NCBI GenBank assembly: GCA_000004695.1
Contig: CM000151.3
Coordinates: 6,848,001-6,912,000, forward strand
Reading direction: 5' to 3'
Length of the DNA stretch: 64,000 nt
Source of the DNA: Dictyostelium discoideum
Taxonomy: Eukaryota
Under the pieces are notes generated by a model. The model had not been told where the DNA came from. It searched no databases and saw only the letters and a program-made list of their open reading frames with translations. Positions within the stretch are counted from its first letter, which is position 1, and each line of letters begins with the position of its first letter. Shown here piece by piece: positions 15,248 to 33,530 of this stretch. The translations under genes were made by a program, and so were the position numbers.

Positions 15248-15320
15248 CGCCCAAAGGGGGGCTCGAACCCCCGACCACAAGGTTAAAAGCCTTGCGCTCT
15301 ACCGACTGAGCTATCTGGGC
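15248..15320 (-). tRNA. tRNA-Lys (anticodon UUU), 73 nt.
   Basis: Minus strand reads GCCCAGATAGCTCAGTCGGTAGAGCGCAAGGCTTTTAACCTTGTGGTCGGGGGTTCGAGCCCCCCTTTGGGCG. It folds as a cloverleaf: a 7-bp acceptor stem with one G-U pair, a D-arm (GCTC/GAGC), an anticodon loop CTTTTAA, and a T-arm (GGGGG TTCGAGC CCCCC). The A box (TAGCTCAGTCGG) and B box (GGTTCGAGCCC) are present. Confidence 0.9.
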
Positions 15321-18852: not shown

Positions 18853-19296
18853 TAAAAAAAGGCTGAAAAAAAAAAAAATAATAGAATCATTCCCACACAA
18901 AAACCAAACACACATAAATAGAAATTTTTCTATTTATAACATTCTGTTGTCATTATTATTATTAATAAGTAATAATTAAACTTGTATTTATGTAATTTAA
19001 ATAATAAAAAAAATCAAAAAAAATAAAATAAAAATAAATATCAAAAAAATAAAATAAAAAAAAAAAATAAAAAAAATAAAAATAAAAAATAAAAATAAAA
19101 AAAATCAAAAAATAAAAATTAAAAATAGAAACAAAAAAAAAAAAAAAAATAATAATAATAAACAATAATTTTTACACATATAAAAATATATAGTCTTACA
19201 AAAGTAGATAGATAAATAAATAGATTAAGTAAATTTAATATAATAAAATAAAAATATAAAATAAAAATAAAAATAAAAAATAAATATATATAATTT

Positions 19297-30752: not shown

Positions 30753-31364
30753 TTAACAACAAGTATTTTTCTTATTGTTTGGAGTAATGCATATGGTATG
30801 ATCAGGATCATTTGGTGTATCAATCATACGTTTTTTAATATCTTTTGCTAAACCAATAAAGGCTTCCTCTACATTTACACTGTTTTTGGCAGAAGTTTCT
30901 AAAAATTTAATACCATATTCGTCTGCAAGTGATTTACCTCTTGAGCTATCAACAACTTTCTTTTCGGTCATATCACATTTATTACCGATTAACATTTTAT
31001 TAACTGAGTCTGAAGCATGTTGCTCGATATTTCTAATCCAATTTCTAATGCTACCAAAAGATTTTTCATCAGTGACATCATAAACCAATAGGATACCCAT
31101 AGCACCGCGATAGTATGCTGTAGTGATAGTTCTGAATCTTTCTTGACCTGCAGTGTCCCAAATTTGTAATTTAATTCTTTTACCCTCTAATTCAATTGTA
31201 CGAATTTTGAAATCGATACCAATAGTAGCGATGAAACTTGGTGTGAAAGAACCATCAGAAAAACGTAATAAAAGACATGACTTTCCTACACCACTATCCC
31301 CAATTAAAAGTAATTTAACTAAAAAATCGTAGGCTGCTGGTTTATTTGTTGCTGGAGAAGTCAT
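30753..31364 (-). CDS. Rab8-like small GTPase (Rab8/Sec4/Sas subfamily), 203 aa, single exon, with a C-terminal CC prenylation motif.
   Basis: [113 protein letters not shown]...GNKCD...ETSAK...CC. This is near-identical to the Rab8 core, including the effector loop TIGIDF. Confidence 0.92.
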
Positions 31365-31888: not shown

Positions 31889-32019
<131 letters not shown>

Positions 32020-32039
32020 TTTTCTTTCTGGTTTTTAAG

Positions 32040-32520
32040 ATTTTAGTATTAAAATTGGATAAATCGGTCGATGAGATAATGTTTGCATGCACCCAGTTTA
32101 AATAAAATAAACTTTGCACTTAAATTCGTGGGCAGACCAAGACTCCAAGGTCATGTGATTATTTGATTTATTAAAAAAAAAAAAAAAAAAAAAGGAGTCT
32201 TAGGTATCGGATCGGGTTTATGATTTGTAGTTTTTTAGTCCCTACTAACTAGATGGATTTTGAACCTCTCATCTATCGGTTTGAATGTTTTATTTATTGC
32301 TGTTACTTCTCAGCAATTCCACCACCTTCGATAGAGGTTTTTCAACCTTTCTCTCTAATAATGCTGATGTAGTGCAGAGTGAAAGGAACGTTGCCGCTCA
32401 ATTCAAATTGTATTCTGGTGTCTGAATAGGTTTTAAACCTGATGTCCTAATAATTCCCAACAACATAAGTTTAAAATTTATAATTTAAGGGCAATTGATT
32501 AACATTTTTTGTTTTTTATG
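32040..32520. other. GC-richer (about 40% G+C) non-coding island, a candidate structured ncRNA or snoRNA locus.
   Basis: No ORF longer than 30 codons. There is a local 8-bp stem (AAGACTCC ... A20 ... GGAGTCTT) and box C/D-like elements (TGATGT ... CTGA, CGATGAG ... TGA). Composition is strongly atypical for the surrounding intergenic DNA. Confidence 0.3.
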
Positions 32521-33530
32521 GGTCTTTTCGAAAAAAAAAAAAAAAATCAATTTTTTTGCAAACAAAAATGAAAATTTTTAAGAAAAAAAACTAAATTTTT
32601 AAATTTTTATATGTATTATCATTTTAATAACAAACAAACATTAATTTTTTTTAAAAAAAAAAATATATTAGTTTGAAAATTTTTAATAAAAAAAGAATTT
32701 TTGTGGGGATGATAAAATTGATTAATAAGATTCACAAATTCTTTTTTTATTTTCATTTTTAATAATTGAGATTAGAGGGAAAAAAAAAAAAAAAAAAATT
32801 CGCTGAAATCGTGCAAATCAACACAAAGAGATTTTTTTTTTAAAAAAGTAATCAAAGTTTTTAATTTTTTTTTGTAATGCACAAAAACTTTGTAAATGGT
32901 ATGAAAAATAATTAAACTTTTTTTTTTTTTTATATTTTTCACAAATTTTTTCTTTTTTTATCAATCAAATCTTTTTTTTTTTTTTTTTTATCATTTTATT
33001 ATTTTATTTAAAAAAAAACAATTAATAACAAAAAAAAAAAAATGGAGAACCAAAGAAGAGGTATTTTACAAGGATTAAATCGTAGTAGAACAAGTAAGTT
33101 TTTTGAATATTATTAATTTATTTCAAAAAATAAAATTAATGATTGGATTTTATACTAATAATTATTTCAGTATCAACCCAAACAAACAATACTACTGGTC
33201 AATTAAATTCAACTACAACACCAACAATTACTGGTAAAAGTGTTTTCATGGCATAAAATAAACCCAATAAATTCACTCTATTCTTTTTTTTTTTTTTTTA
33301 AACAAAAAAAAATTTATAAATTCTTCTTAAATTCTTTATTTTAAGATTTTTAAAATTTATTATTACTTTTTTTTTTTTTTTTTTATTTTTTTTTTTTTTT
33401 TTTTTAATAAACAATAAAAGAAATATTTTGAAAAAATTAAAAAAAATTATTTTTAGTTTAGTTTATTTTATTATTTTTCTACATCTTTATTTTTTTAATT
33501 TTTTTTTTTTTTTAATCATATTAAAAATTT

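What the first reader, a model, noticed from the sequence alone, without database searches (positions are those of the whole stretch)
32040..32520. GC-richer non-coding island with stem and box C/D-like elements, a candidate ncRNA locus
About 480 bp of roughly 40% G+C, with no ORF, sits in intergenic DNA that is otherwise over 85% A+T. It contains an exact 8-bp stem around an A20 loop and sequences resembling snoRNA C (TGATGT, CGATGAG) and D (CTGA) boxes. Nearby is a DUSE-like TTCCCAACAA. In Dictyostelium, islands like this often hold snoRNA, class I RNA or other Pol II/III ncRNA genes.
Basis: inference. Interest (0 to 1): 0.5.

Follow-up and report, generated by a model that had tools for sequence, protein, structure and literature searches.

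The report
Conserved small RNA gene, opposite strand

Summary
The island is real but composite. Its right two-thirds (32194-32531) are a minus-strand ncRNA gene. A perfect DUSE (ACCCATAA, 32523-32516) lies 64-65 nt upstream of a GGGAAUU start at about 32458. A TATA-like block follows the DUSE.

The promoter and RNA are 94-97% identical in diverged D. discoideum-complex genomes, while the flanks are 37-81% identical and full of indels. D. firmibasis has two much more diverged copies (127-128 bits). Each has a DUSE at the same distance and ends in a T-run.

Stems covary: 7 pairs changed on both sides, and no shuffle in 500 reached the observed covariation score. Two 8-nt loops and a 26-nt single strand are essentially invariant.

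The box C/D reading, the 8-bp stem and "TTCCCAACAA = DUSE" are not supported. The left third of the island (32037-32172) is unconstrained.

No Rfam family matches. SRP, RNase P/MRP, telomerase RNA and class I RNA were tested and not met.

Best reading: a snRNA-type, probably Pol III, structured RNP RNA specific to Dictyostelium. It may be the orphan snRNA D1/Dd8 described in 1983, which I could not check.

The parts
32516..32523 (-). DUSE (ACCCATAA), the Dictyostelium upstream sequence element
   Evidence: It matches [AT]CCCA[CT]AA exactly. Its first base lies 64-65 nt upstream of the first G of the RNA in all six genes examined: window, L002, L003, L005 and two D. firmibasis copies. The literature places DUSE at about 60-63 nt (PMC3188802, PMC7919456). 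It is the only one of the 8 window matches that sits in AT-rich DNA and is followed by a GC-rich non-coding body.
32459..32531 (-). Conserved promoter block: DUSE, spacer and TATA-like TTAAATTATAAATTTTAAAC (TATAAAT at 32482-32476)
   Evidence: 71 of 73 columns are identical between the window and L003. The DNA immediately upstream is only 37% identical, with 45% gap columns. The D. firmibasis copies have unrelated spacers but keep A/T-rich TATA-like boxes.
32194..32458 (-). RNA body, about 265 nt (GGGAAUUAUUAGG ... CCUAAGACUCC)
   Evidence: It is 94% identical to L003 with one indel. Model R1 scores 340 bits (window), 345 (L003), 313 (L005) and 127-128 (D. firmibasis). No ORF is present. Covariation is shown. 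Fold z-scores run from -1.8 to -3.15.
32173..32193 (-). T21 run directly after the last conserved base; a Pol III-type terminator (it reads as A21 on the + strand)
   Evidence: A T-run follows GA(C/U)UCC or AAUUCC in every gene: T21, T16, T13AT4, T7 and T13. Sequence conservation stops here.
32434..32457 (-). 5' strand of the long terminal helix P1, which pairs with 32194-32220
   Evidence: D. firmibasis carries compensatory changes: U-A to C-G, C-G to U-A, G-C to A-U (pairs 11-280, 19-268, 21-266). By my reading, A.C becomes G-C at a position outside the scored structure. A.C becomes A-U in L003 and L005.
32194..32220 (-). 3' strand of terminal helix P1
   Evidence: Same evidence as for the 5' strand.
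32411..32428 (-). Hairpin A: UAUUC[AGACNCNA]GAAUA. The stem and most of the loop are invariant.
   Evidence: It is identical in all genes except two loop positions. It is predicted in every independent fold.
32380..32405 (-). Hairpin B, with a GCAA tetraloop in D. discoideum
   Evidence: The helix is kept in D. firmibasis, but with an 8-nt loop and a shifted register. A-U becomes G.U in L002.
32320..32363 (-). Hairpin D: lower stem CAUUAUU/GGUGGUG, internal loops, apical AGGUU[GAAA]AACCU
   Evidence: One pair shows U.G, C-G and U-A within the D. discoideum complex. In D. firmibasis the stem is replaced by a different complementary sequence, (U)CUGCUAA/UUGGUAG(A).
32296..32317 (-). Hairpin E: UGCUG[AGAAGUAA]CAGCA, with an invariant 8-nt loop
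   Evidence: The 18-nt stretch UGCUGAGAAGUAACAGCA is identical in the window, L003 and both D. firmibasis copies. L005 and L002 lack the first U, so the invariant core is GCUGAGAAGUAACAGCA. By my reading, the extension of the stem changes from U-A to A-U in D. firmibasis.
32225..32250 (-). Conserved single-stranded tract AGUUAGUAGGGACUAAAAAACUACAA. Its GUAGGG pairs with CUCUGC at 32374-32379 (helix C).
   Evidence: It is invariant except at four positions across D. discoideum and D. firmibasis. The helix C pair 85-238 is U.G, U-A or A-U. D. firmibasis can also form a local hairpin, AGUCA[GUAG]UGACU.
32037..32172 (.). It is not part of the gene.
   Evidence: It is 42% identical to L003 with 23% gap columns. 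It is a mosaic of indels among the window, L005 and L003. It has no significant similarity to the RNA and no repeat elsewhere in the window.

Best explanation
Window 32173-32531 is a minus-strand gene for a structured non-coding RNA of about 265 nt, of the Dictyostelium snRNA-type (DUSE-dependent) class.

Shown:
- A DUSE at -64/-65 and an A/T-rich TATA-like box define a start at the G-run near 32458.
- The conserved region ends exactly at a T-run.
- The RNA folds into a long terminal helix that joins its 5' and 3' ends, plus several hairpins whose stems covary.

Inferred:
- Transcription is by RNA polymerase III (type-3-like promoter, T-run termination), giving a U-tailed transcript that assembles into a stable RNP.
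- Two hairpin loops (AGACNCNA and AGAAGUAA) and a 26-nt single-stranded tract (AGUYAGUAGNGACUAAAAANCUACAA) are essentially invariant while the stems change. These are therefore the working surfaces that contact proteins or a target RNA.

The RNA belongs to no catalogued family and is so far seen only in the D. discoideum / D. firmibasis group. It may be the orphan small nuclear RNA D1/Dd8.
For: Conservation:
- Promoter 97% and RNA 94% identical between the window and L003, against 37-81% in the flanks with many indels.
- An intact copy is present in L005.
- Two diverged copies lie downstream of hira in D. firmibasis, at 127 and 128.5 bits, E about 1e-34.

Promoter:
- The DUSE sits 64-65 nt from the first G in all six genes, although the spacers of the D. 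firmibasis copies are unrelated.
- Expected position.
- It is the only DUSE match in the window with this context.

Terminator: a T-run (T7 to T21) follows the last conserved base in every gene.

Structure:
- 96.0% of cells are paired against 90.9% in shuffles (0/500).
- 7 pairs and 16 cells changed on both sides (10/500 and 0/500).
- Covariation score is 0.210 against 0.124 in shuffles (0/500), and at most 0.065 in the slid controls.
- Three of three stem substitutions in L005/L002 that were not used to derive the structure preserve pairing.
- Independent folds of L003 and D. firmibasis reproduce the helices, with z = -2.99 and -3.15.

Strand: the variable pairs switch between G.U and Watson-Crick on the minus strand. 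On the plus strand the same positions would be A.C mismatches.

Not coding: there is no ORF, and the relatives carry frameshifting indels.
Against: - No expression data could be consulted. The locus is absent from the lncRNA tables of Rosengarten et al. at the corresponding coordinates.
- The choice of polymerase is inferred. Absence of a T4 run inside the RNA is not significant (53% of shuffles), and T-runs are common in this genome. If the RNA is D1/Dd8, which I recall as trimethylguanosine-capped, it would be a Pol II product.
- TATAAAT lies at -24 to -18, closer to the start than the usual -30.
- The L002 copy is truncated by a 2.6-kb replacement. So this copy is dispensable, or other copies exist, or that assembly is wrong.
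- The alignment used for the covariation statistics was fitted to the model.
- The central part of the fold (helix C versus a local hairpin; hairpin F) is not settled.
Confidence: 0.85

Rival explanations
1. The gene is the same, but it is transcribed by RNA polymerase II as a capped snRNA-type RNA: the orphan small nuclear RNA D1/Dd8 of D. discoideum. The T-run is then only AT-rich flanking DNA or part of a 3' box.
For: - DUSE also drives Pol II snRNA genes: it lies upstream of all spliceosomal RNA genes.
- D1/Dd8 is listed as a known ncRNA 'found only in D. discoideum' (PMC3188802 Table S3a). That fits an RNA with no Rfam family.
- From memory, D1 is larger than the roughly 210-nt U3 homologue D2 and carries a trimethylguanosine cap.
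- An Sm-like AAUUUGA lies between hairpins A and B in the D. discoideum complex.
Against:
- The Sm-like site is AAUUUAA in D. firmibasis.
- Conservation stops exactly at a T-run in all genes, with no conserved 3' box beyond it.
Confidence: 0.35
2. It is a highly diverged member of a universal RNA family that Rfam models miss, such as RNase P/MRP RNA, SRP RNA or 7SK.
For: Resemblances seen by eye:
- GAGAAAGGUUGA resembles CR-I.
- CUAGUUA, placed directly before a helix strand, resembles the MRP CR-IV motif AnAGUnA.
- GAGAA in a hairpin loop resembles GARAR.
- A candidate P4 pair is A-U in the window and U-A in L003.
Against: - No P, MRP, SRP or 7SK hit appears even at E<=10 on the exact RNA.
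- The proposed 3' strand of P4 lies in the terminal helix, which covaries in D. firmibasis. The pair is A.A in L005.
- There is no P3 between P2 and CR-I.
- The D. discoideum MRP RNA is already described, found by a P4 model on another dictyBase sequence entry whose position relative to this window I could not determine.
- The CR-I-like and T-loop-like strings are not conserved in D. firmibasis.
- One copy is disrupted in L002.
Confidence: 0.04
3. It is the missing telomerase RNA of Dictyostelium, of the Pol III type with a promoter like that of plant telomerase RNAs.
For: - TERT exists in D. discoideum but its RNA is unknown (PMC6592521).
- The size, the terminal helix that closes the molecule, the upstream-element-plus-TATA promoter and the T-run all resemble ciliate and plant telomerase RNAs (from knowledge of those families).
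- The conserved single strand contains GGGACU, the complement of AGTCCC in one D. firmibasis telomeric repeat.
Against: - No stretch is complementary to 1.5 copies of either D. firmibasis repeat.
- The D. firmibasis RNA itself reads GUGACU, not GGGACU.
- There is no C-rich template for the A-G(1-8) repeats.
- No pseudoknot was supported.
Confidence: 0.03
4. One reading: plus-strand box C/D snoRNA(s) or class I RNA inside the island.
For: C-like (TGATGT) and D (CTGA) strings lie 57 nt apart on the plus strand. Weak box C/D family hits of 10-17 bits appear.
Against: - There is no RUGAUGA and no terminal stem.
- TGATGT at 32365 is not conserved.
- The hits are far below the gathering scores (37-60 bits).
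- No class I motif CTTACAGC occurs in the window.
- The sequence is absent from the Diesend et al. snoRNA supplement.
- Promoter, terminator and G.U pattern all point to the other strand.
Confidence: 0.02
5. It is not an RNA gene: either a conserved cis-regulatory module for rab8B or hira, or a transposon or retro-pseudogene fragment ending in poly(A).
For: It lies 830 bp upstream of rab8B. The A21 run could be read as a poly(A) tail on the plus strand.
Against: - rab8B is absent from the D. firmibasis locus, yet two copies of the element are kept there, each with its own DUSE.
- The covariation preserves RNA pairing.
- The run is present in all orthologues at the same boundary.
- There is no repeat in the window and no transposon protein signature nearby.
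Confidence: 0.03

Closest known systems
DUSE-dependent ncRNA genes of Dictyostelium (U1, U2, U4, U5, U6 snRNAs, class I/II RNAs)
   Same: The upstream element is the same, ACCCATAA at about -63. The genes are small, intron-less, GC-richer islands in AT-rich intergenic DNA, and the element is conserved across group 4 species.
   Different: The RNA is far longer than class I RNAs (42-65 nt) and lacks their 11-nt motif. It matches none of the spliceosomal RNA models.
D1/Dd8, an orphan small nuclear RNA of D. discoideum (Wise & Weiner 1981; Kaneda et al. 1983)
   Same: It is a D. discoideum-specific small RNA with no homologue in other organisms and no Rfam family. It is listed in PMC3188802 Table S3a. 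From memory it is larger than U3 (about 210 nt).
   Different: Identity could not be tested because the sequence is not held. From memory, Dd8 has a trimethylguanosine cap (Pol II), whereas this gene ends in a Pol III-type T-run.
Pol III type-3 genes (U6, 7SK, RNase MRP/P RNA, Y RNA; plant and ciliate telomerase RNA)
   Same: The promoter is wholly upstream (a distal element plus an A/T box). Termination is at a T-run. The 5' and 3' ends pair in a terminal helix.
   Different: There is no sequence or structure match to any of these families. The internal architecture (hairpins A-F) is its own.
RNase MRP RNA
   Same: CUAGUUA lies directly 5' of a long-range helix strand, as CR-IV does. GAGAA sits in a hairpin loop. 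Another hairpin has a helix-loop-helix form.
   Different: There is no P4 pseudoknot, no GAAAGUCCCC-type CR-I, no P3 in the right place and no Rfam hit. The D. discoideum MRP RNA has already been described, on a dictyBase entry I could not relate to this window.

Membership tests
DUSE-dependent Dictyostelium ncRNA gene | [AT]CCCA[CT/AT]AA about 60-63 nt upstream of the transcript start, on the transcribed strand | tested here: met
   ACCCATAA at 32523-32516. It lies 64-65 nt from the first G in six genes of at least four genomes. Expected position.
DUSE-dependent Dictyostelium ncRNA gene | A conserved, non-coding transcribed body | tested here: met
   94% identity against poorly alignable flanks. 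No ORF. Stems covary.
DUSE-dependent Dictyostelium ncRNA gene | A discrete, stable transcript of the predicted size | not testable with these tools
   No read data were available. The locus is not in the Rosengarten lncRNA tables.
Box C/D snoRNA | C box RUGAUGA near the 5' end, D box CUGA near the 3' end, and a terminal stem of 4-5 bp | tested here: not met
   No RUGAUGA on the + strand. The C-like TGATGT is not conserved. The flanks are not complementary. Rfam C/D hits are at most 17 bits against cut-offs of 37-60.
Class I RNA | [quoted passage not shown] | tested here: not met
   CTTACAGC is absent from the window. The RNA is about 265 nt.
RNase P / RNase MRP RNA | A P4 pseudoknot between CR-I and CR-V | tested here: not met
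   The candidate pairing gives A-U, U-A and A.A. Its 3' strand is occupied by the covarying terminal helix.
RNase P / RNase MRP RNA | A P3 helix-loop-helix between P2 and CR-I, and a match to the family model | tested here: not met
   Only about 26 nt lie between the candidate P2 and CR-I. No RF00009 or RF00030 hit at E<=10.
SRP RNA (including Dictyostelium_SRP) | A match to the family covariance models; helix 8 motifs | tested here: not met
   No SRP-clan hit at gathering score or at E<=10.
Telomerase RNA | A single-stranded template complementary to about 1.5 telomeric repeats | tested here: not met
   The D. firmibasis repeats have no complement in the D. firmibasis RNA.
Pol III type-3 gene | A T-run (at least T4) terminator at the 3' end and none inside | tested here: met
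   T7 to T21 follow every gene, and no T4 occurs in any RNA body. The internal absence is not statistically significant.
Pol III type-3 gene | A TATA box at about -30 to -25; Pol III occupancy; 5' triphosphate | tested here: inconclusive
   TATAAAT lies at -24 to -18, with TTAAATT at -31. The D. firmibasis copies have A/T boxes at about -34 to -15. The biochemistry is not testable here.
D1/Dd8 snRNA | Sequence identity with the published Dd8 RNA | not testable with these tools
   The sequence is not held in any accessible source.

The most novel reading that the evidence does not exclude
This is a previously uncatalogued, lineage-restricted class of abundant structured RNP RNA in group 4 dictyostelids, and not D1/Dd8. 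Its invariant single-stranded elements act by base-pairing. The tract AGU(U/C)AGUAG is an exact complement of the intron branch-site consensus UACU(A/G)AC, and the change between species keeps that complementarity. The invariant loop AGAAGUAAC resembles a 5' splice site. Together these would suggest a regulator or decoy of the splicing machinery.
Probability: 0.12. Interest if true: 0.75.

Novelty: new member of a known kind. Interest (0 to 1): 0.5.

Why it matters
Dictyostelium is a main model for the evolution of multicellularity, and its lineage-specific small RNAs (class I RNAs) already have developmental roles. This is a 265-nt, strongly constrained, structured RNA with its own snRNA-type promoter. 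It is duplicated in a sister species and absent from Rfam, so Rfam-based annotations such as that of D. firmibasis miss it.

Either outcome is useful:
- If it is the 40-year-old orphan snRNA D1/Dd8, this work supplies its gene, promoter, orthologues and a covariation-supported fold.
- If it is not, it is a new RNA family.

In both cases the invariant loops and the single-stranded tract give direct targets for mutagenesis and pull-downs.

Tried and rejected
- **Rfam.** I searched at gathering score (window, L002, L003) and at E<=10 (701 nt, then the exact 277 nt). Only noise came back.
- **tRNA.** The ARAGORN tRNA scan found nothing in the island.
- **Retroelement with poly(A).** Rejected, because the run is conserved as a T-run terminator.
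- **Inverted partial duplicate of the RNA in the left third.** Not significant: score 25 against 21.6 +/- 3.5.
- **T-run avoidance as evidence for Pol III.** Not significant.
- **Thermodynamic strand test.** Uninformative: z is -1.80 on the minus strand and -1.94 on the plus strand.
- **B-box-like GGUUCAAAAUCC, GNRA tetraloops and Sm-like AAUUUGA.** Not conserved in D. firmibasis.
- **P/MRP-like fold with a P4 pseudoknot.** Refuted.
- **SRP helix 8 resemblance seen by eye.** No model support.
- **Telomerase template.** No match.
- **Two metagenome pattern scans.** No hits.
- **Sequence strings in paper texts and supplements.** No hits.
- **HIRA C-terminal and N-terminal queries in the word-indexed protein search.** No dictyostelid orthologues.
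- **A. subglobosum Rab8 locus.** Not syntenic, and the RNA model found nothing there.
- **L002 insert.** Pfam found no transposon signature.
- **Aspegren 2004, Hinas 2006, Piccinelli 2005, Marquez 2005.** Not held in the paper library.

Full report
**1. What is at the coordinates**

The window is Dictyostelium discoideum. An assembly of that species is 99.9% identical to it. The neighbouring Rab protein is RAB8B_DICDI.

The island lies between the 3' end of the hira gene (stop at 33523, minus strand) and the start of rab8B (31364, minus strand). GC is 0.318 over 32040-32520 and 0.377 over 32194-32458. The surrounding intergenic DNA is 0.12-0.145. The longest ORFs are 39 and 46 aa.

As evidence they do not hold up:
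- An exact 8-bp inverted repeat is found in 63.5% of dinucleotide shuffles.
- No canonical C box exists.
- The DUSE consensus by itself occurs 8 times in the window against 9.3 expected.

**2. Comparative evidence defines a gene on the other strand**

Syntenic loci (hira, intergenic DNA, rab8B) came from three diverged assemblies labelled D. discoideum or D. cf. discoideum: L002, L003 and L005.

The intergenic DNA is mostly hard to align, but one block has sharp edges. Window 32531-32459 is 97% identical to L003, and 32458-32194 is 94% identical with a single indel. The 68 bp immediately upstream are 37% identical with 45% gap columns. The 135 bp downstream of the A/T run are 42% identical.

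Read on the minus strand, the block begins with TTCGAAAAG-ACCCATAA, a perfect DUSE. It continues through TTAAATTATAAATTTTAAAC, then GGGAAUUAUUAGGACAUCAGG..., and ends ...CCUAAGACUCC followed by T21. The relatives have T16 and T13AT4 at the same point.

**3. A distant orthologue**

A full-library search with a hira exon gave one HIRA orthologue, from D. firmibasis. A covariance model built from the window and L003 (R1) finds two copies there, downstream of hira, at 127 and 128.5 bits (E about 1e-34).

- Each copy has ACCCATAA 64-65 nt upstream of its GGG(G/A)AU start. Each ends AAUUCC followed by T7 or T13.
- Their promoter spacers are unrelated to each other and to D. discoideum.
- The duplicated segment is only about 370 bp, and the two RNA bodies differ at one base.
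- rab8B is absent from that locus and has no D. purpureum orthologue in the published table. So the conserved block is not a rab8B regulatory element.

**4. Structure**

RNAalifold on the window and L003 gave a nested fold:
- a long terminal helix joining the 5' and 3' ends;
- hairpins A and B;
- a long-range helix C, which encloses hairpins D, E and F.

Within the D. discoideum complex every stem substitution preserves pairing. This includes three from L005/L002 that played no part in deriving the fold, and one pair shows U.G, C-G and U-A. With only those sequences the shuffle controls were not significant.

Adding D. firmibasis changes that:
- 96.0% of cells pair, against 90.9 +/- 0.9% in shuffles (0/500).
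- Seven pairs and 16 cells changed on both sides (10/500 and 0/500).
- The covariation score is 0.210 against 0.124 in shuffles (0/500), and at most 0.065 when the partners are slid.

The terminal helix carries U-A to C-G, C-G to U-A and G-C to A-U exchanges. By my reading of the sequences, an A.C mismatch there also becomes G-C. In hairpin D the lower stem CAUUAUU/GGUGGUG is replaced by a different complementary sequence, CUGCUAA/UUGGUAG.

Caveat: that alignment was fitted to the model. However, the free-energy fold of the D. firmibasis RNA alone reproduces P1 and hairpins A, B, D and E, with z = -3.15. L003 alone reproduces the whole model, with z = -2.99.

The many G.U pairs that alternate with Watson-Crick pairs would be A.C mismatches on the plus strand. 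This fixes the strand independently of the promoter.

Two parts are unsettled. Helix C competes with a local hairpin in D. firmibasis, and hairpin F competes with a 7-bp alternative helix.

**5. What is invariant**

The stems change, but the following do not:
- AAAACCUAUUCAGACNCNAGAAUACAAUUU (hairpin A and its loop)
- UGCUGAGAAGUAACAGCA (hairpin E with its 8-nt loop; L005 and L002 lack the first U)
- AAAACAUU
- AGUYAGUAGNGACUAAAAANCUACAA

Several features that looked suggestive in D. discoideum alone are not conserved in D. firmibasis. These are two GNRA tetraloops, a B-box/T-loop-like GGUUCAAAAUCC, and an Sm-like AAUUUGA.

**6. What it is not**

- **Rfam.** Nothing at gathering score, and only box C/D noise of at most 17 bits at E<=10 on the exact RNA.
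- **Box C/D snoRNA.** Motifs non-canonical, unconserved and on the wrong strand.
- **Class I RNA.** No CTTACAGC in the window.
- **RNase P/MRP.** I pursued this reading seriously: a CR-I-like GAGAAAGGUUGA, the MRP CR-IV heptamer CUAGUUA next to a helix strand, GAGAA in a loop, and a candidate P4 pair with A-U in the window and U-A in L003. It fails. L005 has A.A at that pair. The 3' strand of the proposed P4 belongs to the covarying terminal helix. No P3 sits where it should. The D. discoideum MRP RNA has already been described on a different dictyBase entry.
- **Telomerase RNA.** D. discoideum TERC is unknown, but the D. firmibasis telomeric repeats have no complementary template in the D. 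firmibasis RNA.
- **Transposon or retro-pseudogene.** Excluded by the orthologous T-runs, the uniqueness of the sequence in the window and the lack of any transposon signature.

**7. Mechanism, with the steps marked**

Shown:
- promoter element, body and terminator-like run are conserved as one unit in six genes;
- selection acts on RNA pairing;
- the gene is on the minus strand.

Inferred:
- the start is at the G-run near 32458, about 64 nt from the DUSE;
- transcription is by Pol III, ending in the T-run;
- the RNA assembles into an RNP in which the terminal helix protects the ends, and the invariant loops and tract bind partners.

I put Pol III at about 0.6 against Pol II at about 0.35. DUSE serves both polymerases, and T-runs are common in this genome.

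The truncation of the L002 copy by a 2.6-kb replacement, with an intact gene in its close relative L005, suggests that this copy is dispensable or that other copies exist.

**8. Relation to what is known**

The gene is a member of the DUSE-dependent small-RNA genes of Dictyostelium.

The best candidate for its identity is the orphan snRNA D1/Dd8, listed as "found only in D. discoideum".

The published lncRNA tables have no model at the corresponding coordinates. Rfam-based annotation, as used for D. firmibasis, cannot see it.

**9. Verdict**

This is a real, conserved, structured ncRNA gene. It is either the gene for a long-known orphan snRNA, now with promoter, orthologues and fold, or a new lineage-specific RNA family. 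Interest is moderate.

Noticed in passing
L002:1757-4340 (corresponds to window 32262-32037): In one D. discoideum-complex assembly the last ~70 nt of the RNA gene, the terminator and the downstream stretch are replaced by 2.6 kb carrying small ORFs. One is a Gly/Val-rich 124-aa protein. No Pfam transposon domains were found. The close relative L005 has the intact gene.
   Followed up: partly
L006:15902-16266 and L006:19778-20146 (D. firmibasis): There are two copies of the RNA gene 3.9 kb apart. Only about 370 bp is duplicated (91.6% identity). The RNA bodies differ at one base, while the promoter spacers have diverged. This suggests gene conversion or strong purifying selection on the RNA.
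   Followed up: partly
window 30753-31364 (-) and L006: rab8B (DDB_G0276399) lies next to the RNA gene in D. discoideum. It is absent from the syntenic D. firmibasis locus and has no D. purpureum orthologue in the published table. It therefore looks like a recent insertion or duplication at this site.
   Followed up: partly
window 32225-32250 (-) and 32301-32309 (-): The conserved tract contains GUUAGUA, an exact complement of the branch-site consensus UACUAAC. In D. firmibasis it reads GUCAGUA, the complement of UACUGAC. The invariant loop AGAAGUAAC resembles a 5' splice site. This may be coincidence.
   Followed up: no
window 31892-32019: A perfect (TTA)42.7 microsatellite abuts the island. 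A TAA/ATT repeat sits at the same place in L003.
   Followed up: no
window 32703-32712 (-): A near-DUSE, TCCCCACAAA, lies about 180 nt upstream of the real DUSE. It is a perfect TCCCACAA in L002 and is deleted in L003.
   Followed up: no
window 15248-15320 (-): A tRNA-Lys(UUU) gene (72.6 bits) is the only Rfam or ARAGORN hit in the 64-kb window.
   Followed up: no
window ~18863-19134 (-): The published 271-nt single-exon lncRNA model CUFF_1958_1 (Rosengarten et al.) maps here after correcting a 13,569-nt coordinate offset. The region is almost pure A/T and is unrelated to the island.
   Followed up: partly
L005:6001-7820: The deposited gene model (437 aa) fuses Rab8B with an upstream segment that has a Pkinase hit. 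This is probably an annotation artefact.
   Followed up: no
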